A DNA stretch of 56,892 nt from Girardia tigrina (lineage: Eukaryota), in assembly GCA_001938485.1 (NCBI GenBank), contig MQRK01214093.1, positions 1 through 56,892 of the forward strand. Reading direction: 5' to 3'. A program made the position numbers. This document shows, one piece after another, positions 1 to 15,000 of this stretch (position 1 is its first letter; each line of letters opens with the position of its first letter).

Positions 1-3000
1 GAATATTTGTTTTAATATTCGATGTAATGTAGTTTTTTTTAAATAAATATATTAATCGTCAATTGCATTTATTGATTTTTGATTATCGTATCATTAATAT
101 TATTGTCATAATATAACATAAACACTTACTAGTAAATATTTTACTAGTCATAGAAACACTCAATTAGAAATGTGATACTTGCATCACTATCGACACAAAT
201 TTATTACTATCTGTACTAAAGGTGAGATTTGCTAAAAACAATATTTCGAGGAACATCCAAGGATATAACATTACTTCAAATTGAAATTTGATTCAAGCAT
301 AAATGTATAATTAATAAATTCATAAAAGGGTTAGTGTCAGTGGGGTTGATCATTATTGTTTGTCACTGTTTTGTTGTCTATGACGATTGACCAACATTAG
401 TCTGCCAGATATCGAAACATTTGTTAAATGTTATTCTATCGCGTTTAGCAGAAATAGAGATAATGTGATGCACTGACAACATTATTCATCACTCACTACC
501 ATGTACGCCAATGCTGGTACTGTAGTCACTGTGATAGTCAGTTATCCATCCAGTTGGGGGAGACGTCGAAACTATCATATACGTCAATAAAATAGTTCAT
601 AATTATTTTTAAATTTTATCATTATCTAATTTATATCATAATTAATTAGGGTAAACTATATTTATATAAAATCTTAAGATATCGAACAAGTCTTAGATGC
701 TATTAAAGTTATTTTTTGTATAGATTAAGATAATGTAGTTGTTTATAGCCTGTTAGACATTTACTTGAAATTTAGAATTTGAAATTCAGTCTTAGAAAAA
801 GGTAGGCGGGATTATCCATGATTAGTTAATTTTTTTAATAAATGTTACCACAATCAATAAAAATCAATATCTCCTATTTATACACAATTGTCATCTCGAA
901 TTATAACAAAAAGCACTAAAAGATGCCCTTCAGTTACATTGAGATTTTTATTTTAGGCGGTCCTCATGAAAGGATAAACGTATTCTCCCTTTGATAGTAA
1001 TAATAATAACAATAATAAATAGTTGACACACACACAGTTTGACGACCGCCATACCAAATTTTAAGTGTCTCTTAAACTGCCATTCAAATCACTAAAATAA
1101 TAACATTAAAGCATTTAAACAAATGATAAATATTTCTATTAAACAAATTGTATAAAAATAAACAATTTTCGATATGCAAATTATAATATATTATAAATAA
1201 TTGATGATATATCTATAAAAAATGTTATTTAAATTTATCAATCTATTATTTAATCGAAATATATTTATTTTAAATAATTATCATTTATTTTTTTAGTTGG
1301 TAAAAAATTTTCGTTTATTATTGAAAGAAAATTATATTTTTTGTCATTTTCTCAAAATTTATAATATTTGCGATTAATTAATTACTAACTTATTGTATAG
1401 AAATAGATGTAAATTTATTTTCATATATCATTTAATAAATTCAGATCAATGGATGTTAATCATTCTGTTTTAGACATTGGTTCTTGTTTTTTTTGAATCG
1501 TAATGCTATTTTTTCGAAAACATTTTAAGTCTGGTGTCTTTAGACATCCGGAACAATTTAACTCTCCTATAAGTTTGATAGTATAACAATGAAATTGTAA
1601 TTTGTTCTTACATGAAATGAATTCTTAAACTTTTTATAAATCAAAATATGGAAAAACTTATCAATTCATTTTATTATAAATTATTATTATGGTTATAGTG
1701 AGCAAACATATGAAAATGTGGAACTGTGCATTTGACAAAATTTTGATGACATGGTTTCTGACGGAATCGTATGACCTTGATGTAACAAGCGTTCGCCGAC
1801 TGAACGGATAACTGAGTATCGTAGAGACTACAGTACCAGCATAGGCATACCGAGTAACAGAGTAAATCTGTTGACTTGTAATTCTAATTATTGAAAATTC
1901 GAAATATGAACTTAAGAAATATATGCCCGTTTATAAATTGCTAAACGTTTACGCTTCTTAAAAATCGAAAACGTTAAAAAGCGAAATTTGCCCACCTCTA
2001 GTCCCACGAAAAAGCTAAATAGATTGGGACAATGTGTTCTTTACCAATGAATAGGCCTAAGGCAGCCTGAATAAAGTTTCAAAAAAAGTATAACTCATGT
2101 TGTGAGTTTTGAAATACAAACTTGATAATTATACGCTCGTTTAGAAATCATTAAACGTTTAAACGTCCTAAAAAACGAAAACGTTTAAACGGTCGTTTAA
2201 ACGCTAAACGTGCCCACCTCTAGATTAGAACATTGAAGCATCGTGTTTGGAATCACATTTATCATTATATACATTATCTTTATCGTAATTTATATTAATT
2301 GAATCCTTCATCTCTCTCTTACTTCGAAAAGACCGAAATAATTTGAATGACAATTTGTTTATGTTATTTCTGTTGTTGCCACCCAAAATCGTCCATTCTA
2401 GATTTTGAATTATTTTCCTTAATAAATTGGTTTTTTTCGAAAGACATTAAAATTCCTAGAACTTAAATTCGACCTTTGATTATAAAATTCAATACAAGCT
2501 TTCCTCGAACTTTTATTTCACAACAATTTACAACCTATTTACAACATTTTTGATTTCGTGTGTGTACACTTTTTACATTTAGATTTATTTAAACCAGGGC
2601 TTCCAACGGGGTCCAGGTTGACCCCTAGGGATCCACAACGTGATTAAGGAGGTCCACAGCAAAATTATGATTTATATTTATAAAAAGTGTTATTCAAAAA
2701 TTTAGAAATTCAAAAAGTCAATGATTTAAAACGTTTCTAACAAGTTTCCATCTCTAATAAATAAAATTTTATCAACCATAAAATGATGAAAAATATTATT
2801 GTTTAAATAAATAAATTTTTAATACTTTTTTAAATACCCAATTTTGATATGAGTAAAAGCAATTAAAATTGTAGGGAATACAGGGGTGGACATAAGTCGC
2901 TTTACCCAGTTTTAATAATAATAAACACAAAATTTTAAATCATAGAACTTTTATTTAATCAGCGTACAANAATAATTTCAAAACAAAAACTTGGAAACAA

Positions 3001-12000: not shown

Positions 12001-15000
12001 ACGTTTACTCACAAAATTTTCTAACCATATCCGAGTTGAAGGAAAGAATTACTACAAAAATTGCAGCCTTGAACAACGATAAAAATTTGTGCCTACGAAT
12101 CCGTTACTCTGTTCAGAGAAGAATCCAGTTGTGTATTAAATCTGAAGAACAAAGCTTTGAAGATAAGATTTTTTTGTTTTCAAGTTTTTGTTTTGAAATT
12201 ATTATTGTACGCTGATTAAATAAAAGTTCTATGATTTAAAATTTTGTGTTTATTATTATTAAAACTGGGTAAAGCGACTTATGTCCACCCCTGTATTCCC
12301 TACAATTTTAATTGCTTTTACTCATATCAAAATTGGGTATTTAAAAAAGTATTAAAAATTTATTTATTTAAACAATAATATTTTTCATCATTTTATGGTT
12401 GATAAAATTTTATTTATTAGAGATGGAAACTTGTTAGAAACGTTTTAAATCATTGACTTTTTGAATTTCTAAATTTTTGAATAACACTTTTTATAAATAT
12501 AAATCATAATTTTGCTGTGGACCTCCTTAATCACGTTGTGGATCCCTAGGGGTCAACCTGGACCCCGTTGGAAGCCCTGGTTTAAATAAATCTAAATGTA
12601 AAAAGTGTACACACACGAAATCAAAAATGTTGTAAATAGGTTGTAAATTGTTGTGAAATAAAATTTCGAGGAAAGCTTGTATTGAATTTTATAATCAAAG
12701 GTCGAATTTAAGTTCTAGGAATTTTAATGTGTTTCGTAAAAAAACCAATTTATTAAGGAAAATAATTCAAAATCTAGAATGGATGATTTTGGGTGGCAAC
12801 AACAGAAATCTCATAAACAAAGAAAATCGAACAGTGTTTCGGAAATTCGATCTCCTTTAATCACGACAGGTGATAATCAATCGGGAAGTAATTTTGTAAG
12901 GAATAGAAATTTCGATCTGTGAAACGGAATTTTGATGAAAGGAATTGATGTAATAAATTGATGAAATTTACGTTGGTGGGAGATATCAAACATATAAATA
13001 GTGACAAAATCAAATCGTTATCGGTTGTAATTGATGGACTGTTGCGTAAATTGTAGGATTGTTTGTTTTTTCCAGTTCCAATCAATATTTCTCCACATTG
13101 ACACCTACAATAACGGGGTTGAGCTTAAAAATGAGGCATTTTTCGCTGCGATTTTAACATTAGATGCCGACAGTTGTTATTGACTACGTTAACATTCTCG
13201 GTACGATCAGTTTTCCGGAAACATCCAATAGCCAACCCCGGGACTCCGCGACCACGCTGCTCCCGCTCGGGCGCCAACACTAATTGTCGATATTTTTATT
13301 GTTTTTATACGGTCAATTAGAGTTGTGAAATTTGACAAACTATAACATTGTTTAATAAACTGACAGAACTTAACGATCACATCCCATCGAACAAATAACA
13401 CATTTTCGCCATTCATTATCCGCTGTTCTCGAAGAAAGATTTCGATATTGAAGATAGACTATATGATTAGACATTATTTTCCTTTATTAAATCCAATTGA
13501 AGTTGCACCATCCTTTGTAACATTCTTTGTTGGTTTTATTGATTTTCCTTTTTAACCCTTTCCTGTCTGAATTAAGATGAATTAATGGAGTCCGTAAATC
13601 ACTTTCTGCAACTTTCAAATGATAAAAAACAAAAGAACAGTTTAAAAGACACGTTTTAAAATAATTTGTCTTTAAAACAGAAATCTTCCTATAAATAAAA
13701 TATAATTCATATTTTTTCAAAAGATGCCTATAAAGTATTAAAATGAAACATGATTCCACATGGTATCAATAGTCAGGAAAGGGTTAATCATACTTCCTGC
13801 TATTGTGATAAAATTATATTCCTTCGTTTTTCTCCTTCCGTTGTTTAATTAACGTTTATTCAATTATATCAAGAAGTTGAGTAGATGATATAGTTATTAA
13901 TATATATTATTTGATATTCTAAAATATTGATTTTAATAAAAGTGAATCCGCAAATAATTGAATATATAGTTTATTACTCTCTCGTCCGCCGTCAGAAAAA
14001 AAGTAAAAAAGGAACAATCGAGAAATATCAATCAGCAATTCCTCGAAAAAAACAAAACTCTGGTAATAATCACATAAACCAGAATTCGATTGAAATTCAA
14101 AACGAGTTTCCACAAAATCACTGGTATACGAACACTCGGAAAAACAAATCGATTTCACTTCATAAAAATTTGACTGATCATAACTCTGAATTGAAATTTT
14201 GATCAACATTCAAAATTTCTCAAATCATCAAAAATGTGCAGCTAATCAGATCGGCCGAATCTTTACACACCATACGCACTTTCCCACGATCGAATCGAAC
14301 AAATATGTTCAAACAAAGAGTCACATGACTCTAATAAACAACAAACTGAATTATTTTTAAACTGAATTAAATTCATTAAAAAATAAATTATTTCTCAATT
14401 ATTTTTTTTGTTTTACATTATTTAATTGATTTATTTTTTAAAATTTTATTTATATATACATATATGTAAATAAATTATGTGACAACAAAAATAAATAAAA
14501 ATTATCAAAGATTGTCATTCAAATTATTTCGGTCTCTTCGAAGTAAGAGAGAGATGAAGGATTCAATTAATATAAATTACGATAAATATAATGTATATAA
14601 TGATAAATGTGATTCCAAACACCATGCTTCAATGTCCTAATCTAATCATTATCATGCTTAAATCTAATCATTAAAATATTTTAATTTTTTTCTATTATAA
14701 TTTTAAATAATAATTTTAAAAAGCCTGAAAATTACGTGATGTTGTGTAGTATTCTGTCGTTATATATATATATATATATATNNNNNNNNNNNNNNNNNNN
14801 NNNNNNNNNNNNNNNNNNNNNNNNNNNNNNNNNNNNNNNNNNNNNNNNNNNNNNNNNNNNNNNNNNNNNNNNNNNNTATACATATATGACTTGAATTTTC
14901 AATTAGTAAAGTGACGATGCCAAAACTGGCCAAATATGTATTGAGAAATAAATATTTAAACAAATGTTTTTTTTTATGTTTCATATATTTCTCTAGAATG

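What the first reader, a model, noticed from the sequence alone, without database searches (positions are those of the whole stretch)
2221..14644. 12-kb interrupted palindrome whose loop is a captured gene
Seen: 2221-4985 pairs with 10205-14644, and 5775-6357 pairs with 7181-8922, both inverted. The ~820-bp spacer (6358-7180) is almost exactly the promoter plus 5' part of an orphan repeat gene. The two Tc1 copies share both flanks, so they are one insertion copied with the arm and not two transpositions. Inference: a fold-back duplication or a giant foldback/Pack-type element that carried the gene's 5' end. Read-through transcription from the central promoter, or across the arms, could give long hairpin RNA against Tc1 and pogo. 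No outer TSD was found, so element status is unproven.
Basis: partly seen in the sequence, partly recalled or inferred. Interest (0 to 1): 0.68.

Follow-up and report, generated by a model that had tools for sequence, protein, structure and literature searches.

The report
Eroded inverted duplication of transposon debris
A 12.4-kb stretch is a genuine but decayed mirror-image duplication of transposon-rich DNA around a truncated copy of a local orphan repeat gene; it looks like an ordinary rearrangement and not a mobile element, though it could give double-stranded RNA against one transposon.

Summary
The inverted pairing is in the sequence, close to the stated coordinates. Outer arms 2218-4985 and 10205-14644 are about 97% complementary. 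Inner arms 5755-6380 and 7185-7249 plus 8374-8942 are about 95% complementary. The loop is 6381-7184.

Each outer arm carries one 1339-bp Tc1/mariner element with the same flanks, so one insertion was copied with the arm. The loop holds the upstream region and 5' part of an ORF family with three members in the window and no relative in two large protein searches.

The arms have since diverged. There are 110 mismatches in 3340 aligned columns. A solo-LTR-like 1124-bp insertion with a 5-bp target duplication sits in the right inner arm only. A 1690-bp block is present in the right outer arm only. A 600-bp mismatch-poor tract looks like arm-to-arm conversion.

I found no terminal repeats of a transposon, no target duplication and no further copy of the arms, so the giant foldback or Pack-type reading is not supported. 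Two unrelated blocks at mirror positions leave open a one-step or a two-step origin. An assembly error cannot be excluded without reads. "pogo" rests on weak leads only. Interest is low to moderate.

The parts
2218..4985 (+). Left outer arm of the inverted duplication
   Evidence: Pairs with 14644-14511 and 12820-10205. Mismatches per segment: 7 of 136, 5 of 524, 41 of 1338, 27 of 736.
2878..4216 (-). Tc1/mariner element, left copy (1339 bp, 44-nt TIRs, TA on both sides; open frame 2959-4080)
   Evidence: TIRs. Pfam DUF4817 HTH plus DDE_3. 96 relatives, the best named ones Rotaria spp. at 40-51%. Best PDB match is the Mos1 transposase, E 8e-5. Spacing between the second and third catalytic positions is 40.
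4344..4652 (-). pogo-type DNA-binding (psq/Tc5 HTH-like) ORF fragment, lead only; mirror copy at 10522-10830 (+)
   Evidence: Atlas 0.96 with 201 shared features to HTH_psq/HTH_Tnp_Tc5 clusters. Pfam HTH_psq E 0.021 for the right copy only. No hit.
4986..5754 (.). Left-only block between outer and inner arm: AT-rich short tandem repeats and a gag-like ORF at 5332-5598 (+), lead only
   Evidence: No homology to the mirror block. TRF arrays at 4941-5206. Atlas 0.94 to DUF7041 and retrotransposon-gag clusters, 149 shared features. No Pfam hit.
5755..6380 (+). Left inner arm; its outer 215 bp (5755-5969) is copy A of a ~205-bp interspersed module
   Evidence: Pairs with 8942-8374 (94.4%) and 7249-7185 (83.8%). 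Module alignment.
6381..7184 (+). Loop: truncated member of the orphan repeat-ORF family (family homology 6517-7099; ORF 6669-7136; two 183-bp units at 6687-7053)
   Evidence: dN/dS against the 16-kb copy is 0.98.
7185..7249 (-). Right inner arm, innermost piece
   Evidence: (pair I6).
7250..8373 (.). Solo-LTR-like insertion, present in the right inner arm only
   Evidence: Starts TG, ends CA, with imperfect terminal inverted repeat. 5-bp direct duplication at 7245-7249 and 8374-8378. The left arm has the empty site with one copy. No second copy in the window.
8374..8942 (-). Right inner arm, outer piece (module copy B at 8728-8942)
8943..10204 (.). Right-only block between inner and outer arm
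   Evidence: No homology to 4986-5754.
9150..9360 (+). Module copy C: third, more diverged copy (89% to A and to B). With B it forms a small palindrome at 8728-9360
9092..10014 (+). Ty3/gypsy-type integrase remnant (virus-like, broken): 1 nested insertion, 2 matched stretches in 2 frames, 4 in-frame stops. Everything upstream of integrase is absent
   Evidence: Pfam rve E 4.9e-8 and SH3_Tf2-1 E 0.0028. tblastx 56-57% aa to the element at 25.1-25.9 kb. Counts.
10205..12820 (-). Right outer arm, inner part
10958..12296 (+). Tc1/mariner element, right copy (open frame 11094-12215)
   Evidence: Differs from the left copy at 41 of 1338 bases and 23 of 374 residues. dN/dS 0.53 from 11 synonymous and 23 non-synonymous differences.
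12821..14510 (.). 1690-bp block present in the right outer arm only: a deletion from the left arm, or an insertion without target duplication
   Evidence: Junctions read. No TSD, no TIR, no Pfam hit, no tRNA or Rfam match.
14511..14644 (-). Right outer arm, outermost part
   Evidence: Pairs with 2221-2354 at 97%.
15385..16557 (-). Neighbouring full-size member of the repeat-ORF family (6.2 units of 183 bp). It points towards the palindrome, which begins 740 bp downstream of it
   Evidence: No relatives. Stop-free for 391 or more codons against a maximum of 116 in 200 shuffles.
49830..50444 (+). Third family member (one unit plus a non-repeat C-terminal part). It shares the loop's upstream 152 bp
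   Evidence: 0 hits among 1.84 billion representatives.

Best explanation
This is an aged inverted segmental duplication (a spacer-containing palindrome) of transposon debris. It is not a mobile element.

A stretch that already held a Tc1/mariner insertion next to a pogo-like fragment was copied in reverse orientation around a short unique centre. That centre holds a truncated paralogue of a local orphan repeat ORF. The likely route is replication template switching or fold-back repair at a break (inferred).

The two arms then evolved as separate loci, and these steps are shown. They accumulated 3-5% substitutions. An LTR retrotransposon inserted into the right inner arm and was later reduced to a solo LTR. 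There is one 1.7-kb indel in the outer arms. A tract of about 600 bp was re-homogenised, most simply by arm-to-arm gene conversion.

I think one duplication event is somewhat more likely than two nested events, about 60:40.

No selected function is needed. As a by-product, any transcript crossing both arms would fold into long double-stranded RNA that matches the Tc1/mariner element. The minus-strand neighbour ORF at 15385-16557 is placed to give such read-through (inferred, untested).
For: The two pairs of arms are inverted, colinear and nested.

One Tc1/mariner insertion is shared, with both flanks and the same TA. The same non-canonical residue sits at one catalytic position in both copies, while 17 of 17 aligned relatives carry the canonical one. 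The change therefore predates the copy.

Private changes show separate histories. In the right inner arm a filled site (TG...CA block with a 5-bp duplication) faces an empty site in the left arm. There are 110 mismatches in 3340 columns.

Both arms end in unrelated unique flanks, with no N run at any junction I read.

The mismatch-poor tract 2392-2992 has 2 mismatches in 600 columns; 0 of 2000 shuffles reach that value.

Outside that tract the outer arms (78 of 2134, 3.66%) and inner arms (30 of 606, 4.95%) do not differ significantly (Fisher p = 0.16).

Potential for dsRNA: 1845 of 4143 left-arm 21-mers have a perfect reverse-complement partner in the right arm. These cover 1163 of 1339 bases of the Tc1/mariner element, and the longest perfect stretch is 459 nt.
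Against: The blocks 4986-5754 and 8943-10204 lie at mirror positions yet are unrelated. They carry a gag-like ORF and an integrase remnant on the same strand, which a mirror copy of one ancestral element cannot give.

The outer edge of the inner arms coincides, within about 20 nt, with the edge of a ~205-bp interspersed module. One duplication event does not predict this.

With the mismatch-poor tract included, the inner arms are more diverged than the outer arms (34 of 628 against 80 of 2734, p = 0.003). That would fit two events.

No reads, no second genome and no RNA data were available. The physical reality of the palindrome and any transcription across it are therefore untested.
Confidence: 0.6

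Rival explanations
1. Two independent nested structures. The inner pair (5755-6380 with 7185-8942) is an older separate unit bounded by a mobile-element end, for example an element with ~600-bp terminal inverted repeats or an older small palindrome. It lies inside remnants of an LTR retrotransposon. The outer pair is a later inverted duplication of a 2.8-4.4-kb segment placed on the other side.
For: The inner-arm edge coincides with the module edge, and a third module copy C sits in another context. The blocks between the arms are unrelated, with a gag-like ORF on the left and an integrase remnant on the right, both on the plus strand. That is the order expected of one interrupted retrotransposon. 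The inner arms are more diverged when all columns are counted (p = 0.003). Other short inverted-repeat structures occur in the window at 8728-9360, 45575-46507 and 47719-49069.
Against: No target duplication flanks 5755-8942. There is no direct-repeat (LTR) pair between 4986-5331 and 9986-10204. The divergence difference disappears once the conversion-like tract is set aside (p = 0.16). The gag reading is a lead only (149 shared features, no Pfam hit). No second copy of the inner unit is in the window.
Confidence: 0.22
2. Assembly artefact: two haplotypes, or two paralogous loci, of one region were joined head to head. Only one arm would then exist per chromosome.
For: Palindromes reported in a bdelloid rotifer draft genome were not retrieved in a later chromosome-level assembly and were attributed to erroneous scaffolding of phased haplotypes (PMC8494291, passages read). 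Artificial palindromes from scaffolding are also noted in PMC7953838 (passages read). Divergence of 3-5% with insertion polymorphisms could be allelic in a highly heterozygous genome. The loop ends in a tandem repeat, a place where assembly graphs tangle. The nearest named relatives of the transposase are from bdelloid rotifers.
Against: All junctions lie in called bases with no N run. Both arms stop at defined points and continue into unrelated sequence on both sides, so a single mis-join does not produce the layout. The mirror blocks between the arms are unrelated. The arms are far from identical, which excludes palindromic chimeric reads of the amplification type. The organism is not identified, so the rotifer precedent is only an analogy.
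Confidence: 0.12
3. A giant foldback or Pack-type transposon whose arms are its terminal repeats and whose cargo is the 5' end of the repeat gene.
For: The overall shape: long inverted arms around a gene fragment. A TA dinucleotide can be read at both outer edges, which is trivial in DNA of 27% G+C.
Against: There is no target duplication beyond that trivial TA, and no terminal inverted repeat at the ends of each arm. There are no sub-repeats in the arms. The arms are themselves a mosaic of unrelated transposon pieces. No other copy is in the window. There were 0 hits in two scans of genome contigs, but that is a prokaryote collection and a very weak test.
Confidence: 0.04
4. A selected hairpin-RNA locus of the Mu killer or hpRNA type, kept because it silences the Tc1/mariner family. 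This concerns function and is compatible with the best explanation for origin.
For: It is an inverted duplication of a complete transposase gene, with 87% of the element covered by perfect 21-nt duplexes. A flanking ORF points into the structure. This is the layout described for Mu killer, where read-through from a flanking gene is proposed to give a ~4-kb hairpin RNA (PMC3440606, abstract only). hpRNA loci made of inverted repeats of their targets are known in Drosophila (PMC10317233, abstract only). A conversion-like tract keeps part of the arms identical.
Against: There are no expression or small-RNA data. The arms decay at roughly the same rate inside and outside the element (41 of 1338 against 39 of 1396, p = 0.73). 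One arm has lost or gained 1.7 kb and another took an LTR insertion, with no sign of constraint. Only these two copies of the element are in the window, so whether a live family exists to be silenced is unknown.
Confidence: 0.1

Closest known systems
Spacer-containing genomic palindromes / inverted segmental duplications (e.g. Y-chromosome palindromes with arm-to-arm gene conversion, as summarised in PMC7953838, passages read)
   Same: Two long arms in reverse orientation around a unique spacer. There is a local tract of near-identity consistent with arm-to-arm conversion.
   Different: It is small (arms of about 3.4-4.4 kb). It is built of transposon debris and an orphan ORF fragment, not of conserved genes. 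The arms are 3-5% diverged and broken by private indels, so homogenisation is local at best.
Mu killer of maize (inverted duplication of part of MuDR that yields a hairpin RNA; PMC3440606, abstract only)
   Same: Inverted duplication that includes a transposase gene. A flanking ORF is oriented so that read-through would cross both arms.
   Different: The whole Tc1/mariner element plus unrelated flanks is duplicated here, not a partial element at its own ends. No transcription, small RNA or silencing evidence is available. The host is an animal-like genome, not a plant.
Drosophila hpRNA loci (PMC10317233, abstract only)
   Same: Inverted repeat capable of forming a long hairpin that matches another genomic sequence.
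   Different: hpRNA arms are typically short and derive from their protein-coding targets (recalled, not tested here). Here the arms are multi-kilobase transposon mosaics.
Foldback elements and Pack-type (gene-fragment-carrying) DNA transposons
   Same: Long inverted arms with a gene fragment in the middle.
   Different: No target duplication, no transposon-type termini, no sub-repeats and no further copies.
[quoted passage not shown]
   Same: The nested element has TA flanks, short TIRs, an HTH plus DDE_3 transposase, and 40 residues between the second and third catalytic positions. Aligned relatives have 40 (10 of 19 sequences, both window copies included) or 41 (9 of 19).
   Different: No phylogeny with named Visitor members was made. 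One catalytic position is non-canonical in both window copies.
Palindromes of the 2013 Adineta vaga draft assembly (PMC8494291, passages read)
   Same: Inverted colinear blocks in an AT-rich invertebrate-like genome. The transposase's nearest named relatives are from bdelloid rotifers.
   Different: Those were multi-gene blocks joined by scaffolding. Here the arms are a few kilobases of contiguous called sequence with unique flanks. The organism of the window is not established.

Membership tests
Genomic palindrome / inverted segmental duplication | Two homologous arms in reverse-complement orientation on one molecule, separated by a unique spacer | tested here: met
   about 3.4 kb of paired sequence, loop 6381-7184.
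Genomic palindrome / inverted segmental duplication | Physical existence on one chromosome (not an assembly join) | not testable with these tools
   No reads available. Indirect only: no N at the junctions, unique flanks, private indels.
Genomic palindrome / inverted segmental duplication | Arm-to-arm gene conversion | tested here: inconclusive
   Tract 2392-2992 with 2 mismatches in 600 columns; 0 of 2000 shuffles reach it. Allelic conversion or a regional rate difference would look the same.
Foldback element | Target-site duplication flanking the whole unit | tested here: not met
   Flanks at 2217 and 14645 share nothing beyond a possible TA.
Foldback element | Arms made of tandem sub-repeats (feature recalled, not taken from a paper read here) | tested here: not met
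   TRF finds only short AT-rich arrays in the arms.
Foldback / Pack-type element | Several genomic copies with the same termini | not testable with these tools
   No eukaryote genome collection was open. None in the window. 0 hits in two prokaryote scans.
Pack-type DNA transposon | Terminal inverted repeats of a known transposon superfamily at the outer ends | tested here: not met
   Outer ends are unlike the Tc1/mariner TIR (one search finds it only at the four internal sites). No TIR within each arm.
Tc1/mariner superfamily (nested element) | TA target duplication and short TIRs | tested here: met
   44-nt TIRs at 95% complementarity, TA on both sides.
Tc1/mariner superfamily (nested element) | Transposase with N-terminal HTH and DDE/D catalytic domain | tested here: met
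   DUF4817 E 1e-12 in both copies. DDE_3 at 30.3 bits (cut-off 28.6) in the left copy and 27.3 bits in the right copy. Mos1 and Sleeping Beauty are the best PDB matches.
Visitor/DD41D family | 41 residues between the second and third catalytic positions | tested here: inconclusive
   40 in both window copies. 40 in 10 and 41 in 9 of the 19 aligned sequences. No tree with named members.
Visitor/DD41D family | Canonical catalytic triad | tested here: not met
   One of the three positions is non-canonical in both window copies and canonical in 17 of 17 relatives.
pogo | DDE_1 catalytic domain with CENP-B/Tc5-type HTH | tested here: not met
   No DDE_1, HTH_Tnp_Tc5 or CENP-B_N hit in 78 ORFs of 75 aa or more, nor in 93 shorter ORFs (92 of the 120 listed plus one extra ORF). 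Only leads for an N-terminal HTH fragment. Searches were empty.
Solo LTR | TG...CA ends, short terminal inverted repeat, 4-6-bp target duplication | tested here: met
   7250-8373 with a 5-bp duplication, and the empty site in the left arm.
Solo LTR | Matching LTRs on a full-length element of the same family | tested here: not met
   No other copy in the window. The genome was not available.
Hairpin-RNA (Mu killer / hpRNA-like) locus | Inverted duplication of the target sequence | tested here: met
Hairpin-RNA (Mu killer / hpRNA-like) locus | Transcript across both arms, and small RNAs from them | not testable with these tools
   No RNA data.

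The most novel reading that the evidence does not exclude
A natural hairpin-RNA locus in an invertebrate (rotifer-like) genome. An inverted segmental duplication trapped a complete Visitor-type mariner. Read-through from the neighbouring orphan repeat ORF would make it a standing source of double-stranded RNA against that transposon family. Arm-to-arm conversion would keep part of the duplex perfect. This would be an animal counterpart of maize Mu killer.
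Probability: 0.1. Interest if true: 0.5.

Novelty: new member of a known kind. Interest (0 to 1): 0.25.

Why it matters
If real in the chromosome, it is a compact and datable example of how inverted duplications arise and decay in transposon-rich DNA. One filled/empty LTR site, one large indel and one conversion-like tract give an internal order of events. It would matter more if the organism is a bdelloid-like asexual, where the existence of true palindromes and intrachromosomal conversion has been disputed (PMC8494291, PMC7953838). It would also matter more if small RNAs map to the arms, which would make it an animal analogue of Mu killer. As it stands it is an ordinary structural feature of a repeat-rich region.

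Tried and rejected
1. Arms as two transposed copies of one composite element (a pogo-like element carrying the nested mariner). Rejected: there is no TIR between the two ends of either arm (415 of 500 and 382 of 500 shuffles reach the score) and no TSD.

2. The 1690-bp right-only block as a Helitron-like or TIR element. Read by eye, its ends fit neither, and one search shows no terminal repeat. Pfam, tRNA and Rfam searches were empty.

3. The overlap of two alignments at 2354-2376 as a long target duplication. On reading the sequence it is a chance similarity of T-rich stretches, and the true junction has 1-2 nt of microhomology.

4. Extension of the outer arms to 5100 (relaxed scoring). Rejected: 47% mismatch in 4953-5100.

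5. One LTR retrotransposon spanning the gag-like ORF to the integrase remnant. No LTR-like direct repeat was found between the two outer pieces, so this stays open.

6. A relation between the AACGTT-rich sequence abutting the left arm (1925-2223) and 10110-10199. Only an 18-nt inverted match (17 of 18) was found, so it was not pursued.

7. Homologues of the repeat ORF: none.

8. Homologues of the pogo-like fragment among longer proteins and in the PDB: none.

9. Two exact-pattern scans of genome contigs, one with a module stretch and one with an outer-arm stretch: 0 hits each. This collection is prokaryotic, so it says little.

10. Identifying the organism. Only the transposase gives a hint (Rotaria spp. 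at 40-51%; unnamed records at 92% and 76%). I did not trace the unnamed records.

Full report
OBSERVATION

The window is AT-rich, about 20-42% G+C in 2-kb steps, and looks eukaryotic. An ungapped repeat search, a gapped self-comparison and a relaxed comparison of the two halves all find two nested, colinear pairs of inverted arms.

- Outer pair: 2218-2353 with 14644-14511, and 2354-4952 with 12821-10218 (2605 nt, 97.0%). By eye it continues to about 4985/10205 across one ~20-nt indel.
- Inner pair: 5755-6317 with 8942-8374 (94.4%), and 6313-6380 with 7249-7185 (83.8%).
- Loop: about 6381-7184.

Three things were not stated:

- The right outer arm is split by a 1690-bp block (12821-14510).
- The right inner arm is split by an 1124-bp block (7250-8373).
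- The blocks 4986-5754 and 8943-10204 lie at mirror positions but are unrelated.

Seven N runs are in the window. Only one single-base N lies inside 2221-14644. It was left as it is and its column was skipped in all arm comparisons. No junction that I read contains an N.

WHAT THE ARMS ARE MADE OF

Each outer arm holds one 1339-bp Tc1/mariner element, at 2878-4216 on the minus strand and 10958-12296 on the plus strand. Each has 44-nt terminal inverted repeats and TA on both sides. Each has an open frame with a DUF4817 helix-turn-helix and a DDE_3 domain.

A protein search returned 96 relatives. The best were unnamed records at 92% and 76% identity; the best named ones were bdelloid rotifers (Rotaria spp.) at 40-51%. 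The best solved-structure matches are the Mos1 and Sleeping Beauty transposases, at E about 1e-4.

I aligned the two window copies with 17 of those 96 relatives. The spacing between the second and third catalytic positions is 40 in 10 sequences, both window copies among them, and 41 in 9. This points to the Visitor/DD41D kind of mariner (name seen in an abstract) and not to Tc1 proper; no tree was made. One catalytic position is non-canonical in both window copies and canonical in 17 of 17 relatives.

The two copies differ at 41 of 1338 bases. Both frames are open, and dN/dS is 0.53 from 11 synonymous and 23 non-synonymous differences. By my own estimate, not a computed test, this is not clearly different from neutral.

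Next to the element lies an ORF, 4344-4652 (minus) with its mirror at 10522-10830. The protein-language-model atlas places it with HTH_psq/HTH_Tnp_Tc5 clusters (0.96, 201 shared features). Pfam gives HTH_psq at E 0.021, below its cut-off, in one arm only. There is no DDE_1 domain anywhere. A search among longer proteins and a PDB search were empty. "pogo" is therefore a lead and not a finding.

LOOP

The loop carries an ATG-initiated ORF (6669-7136) with two 183-bp units. It belongs to a family with two more members in the window: 15385-16557 on the minus strand with 6.2 units, and 49830-50444 on the plus strand with one unit and a non-repeat tail. All three begin with the same eight residues.

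Homology to the family covers 6517-7099. That includes 152 bp upstream of the ATG and stops about 15 codons past the repeats. The loop copy lacks the 3' part that the other two share (15177-15342 with 50541-50361).

The family has no relative at E <= 0.001. This holds among the 8000 best candidates of the word-indexed search and among 1.84 billion representatives read by HMMER.

Whether it is a gene is open. The frame is stop-free for 391 or more codons, against at most 116 in 200 shuffles. However, dN/dS is 0.98 between the loop and the 16-kb copy and 1.46 among units, so a recently amplified stop-free unit would explain the long frame as well.

I searched single ORFs only. A possible second exon of the 16-kb copy was not joined to the first.

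HISTORY AFTER THE DUPLICATION

The 1124-bp block in the right inner arm starts TG and ends CA. It has an imperfect terminal inverted repeat and is flanked by a 5-bp direct duplication, and the left arm holds the empty site with one copy of those 5 bp. This is the signature of an LTR-retrotransposon insertion later reduced to a solo LTR. No second copy is in the window.

The 1690-bp block in the right outer arm has no duplication, no terminal repeat and no recognisable content. It is either a deletion from the left arm or an insertion by another route.

Across 3340 aligned columns there are 110 mismatches. The tract 2392-2992 has 2 mismatches in 600 columns, a value reached by 0 of 2000 shuffles, and it crosses the edge of the mariner. 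Arm-to-arm gene conversion is the simplest reading.

With all columns counted, the inner arms are more diverged than the outer arms (34 of 628 against 80 of 2734, p = 0.003). With the tract set aside the difference is not significant (30 of 606 against 78 of 2134, p = 0.16).

WHAT DOES NOT FIT A SINGLE CLEAN EVENT

The left-only block has a gag-like ORF at 5332-5598 on the plus strand. This is a lead only: atlas 0.94, 149 shared features; no Pfam hit.

The right-only block has a Ty3/gypsy-type integrase remnant on the plus strand:

- Pfam rve at E 4.9e-8.
- 56-57% amino-acid identity to the element at 25 kb.
- It is broken by one nested insertion, with two matched stretches in two frames and four in-frame stops.

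The two lie on the same strand, so they cannot be mirror copies of one ancestral insert.

The outer 215 bp of the inner arms is a discrete ~205-bp module. A third, more diverged copy lies at 9150-9360 in a different context (89% to the arm copies). The edge of the inner arms coincides with the module's edge within about 20 nt. This coincidence and the unrelated mirror blocks are the main arguments for a two-step origin. I give that about 0.22, against 0.6 for a single duplication followed by remodelling.

MOBILE-ELEMENT READING

The unit has no target duplication. There is no terminal inverted repeat within either arm (415 of 500 and 382 of 500 shuffles reach the score). The arms have no sub-repeats, and there is no other copy in the window. 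Two exact-pattern scans of the only open genome collection gave 0 hits, but that collection is prokaryotic and the test is weak. I rate the giant foldback or Pack-type reading at about 0.04.

ASSEMBLY ARTEFACT

Palindromes in a bdelloid draft genome were later attributed to scaffolding of phased haplotypes (PMC8494291, passages read; see also PMC7953838, passages read). Here the junctions are in called bases, both arms end in unrelated flanks, and the mirror blocks differ, so one mis-join does not give the layout. The arms are also too different for chimeric palindromic reads. A head-to-head join of two structurally different haplotypes remains possible, at about 0.12. Only reads can settle it.

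FUNCTION

Nothing requires one. The transposase frames point outward, and the loop ORF reads into the right arm only, so the "central promoter" cannot give a hairpin.

A transcript crossing both arms could. The minus-strand family member at 15385-16557 ends 740 bp from the right arm and points at it. This is the layout proposed for maize Mu killer (PMC3440606, abstract only).

The duplex potential is real. Of 4143 left-arm 21-mers, 1845 have a perfect partner in the right arm. These cover 1163 of 1339 bases of the mariner, and the longest perfect stretch is 459 nt.

The arms nevertheless decay alike inside and outside the element (p = 0.73) and have taken large private indels. I see no sign of selection and rate a selected hairpin-RNA role at about 0.1.

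VIRUS-LIKE STRETCHES

These were described only. The window holds:

- an LTR retrotransposon at 24848-29906 on the minus strand, with 302-bp LTRs at 98.3% identity and gag-like, protease, RT, RNase H and integrase pieces spread over several ORFs;
- a second cluster of RT, RNase H and integrase pieces at about 38.9-44.4 kb on both strands.

VERDICT

This is a new instance of a known kind of structure. Interest is 0.25.

Noticed in passing
window 24848-29906 (minus strand): LTR retrotransposon of Ty3/gypsy type with 302-bp LTRs 98.3% identical (24848-25149 and 29606-29906). Protease, RT, RNase H and integrase domains are spread over at least six separate ORFs, so the pol frame is interrupted several times. 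The integrase remnant inside the palindrome is about 68% identical to it at DNA level.
   Followed up: partly
window 38951-44440: Second cluster of retrotransposon pieces: DUF7047 and RVT_1 on the minus strand (38951-39919), and RVT_1, RNase H and integrase on the plus strand (41880-44166). This is the most G+C-rich part of the window.
   Followed up: no
window 47719-48076 / 48722-49069 and 45575-45752 / 46330-46507: Two more inverted-repeat structures (87% and 91% complementary). The first lies just upstream of the third member of the repeat-ORF family. Inverted structures seem common in this region.
   Followed up: no
window 8728-9360: A small palindrome formed by module copies B (minus) and C (plus) with their outer ends facing each other across about 207 bp.
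   Followed up: partly
window 1925-2001 and 2140-2223; also 10110-10199: Two direct copies of an AACGTT-rich stretch of about 80 bp, each ending in the same 13-mer (3 matches in the window against 0.13 expected). The second copy abuts the left edge of the palindrome exactly. An 18-nt inverted match (17 of 18) lies next to the inner end of the right outer arm. This may be the end of another mobile element.
   Followed up: partly
window 15385-16557, 49830-50444, 6669-7136: The repeat-ORF family has no relative in two very large protein searches and shows dN/dS near or above 1. It is either a fast-evolving lineage-specific repeat protein or not a gene.
   Followed up: partly
window 24000-41000: Sustained negative GC skew (-0.10 to -0.31) and negative AT skew over about 17 kb, wider than the annotated retrotransposon.
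   Followed up: no
window 19752-19909: A perfect (100%) two-copy tandem duplication of 78 bp.
   Followed up: no
proteins P0021 and P0039: Relatives of this eukaryote-type mariner transposase (43% and 43% identity) are labelled as coming from bacterial metagenome-assembled genomes. This may be eukaryotic contamination of those bins.
   Followed up: no
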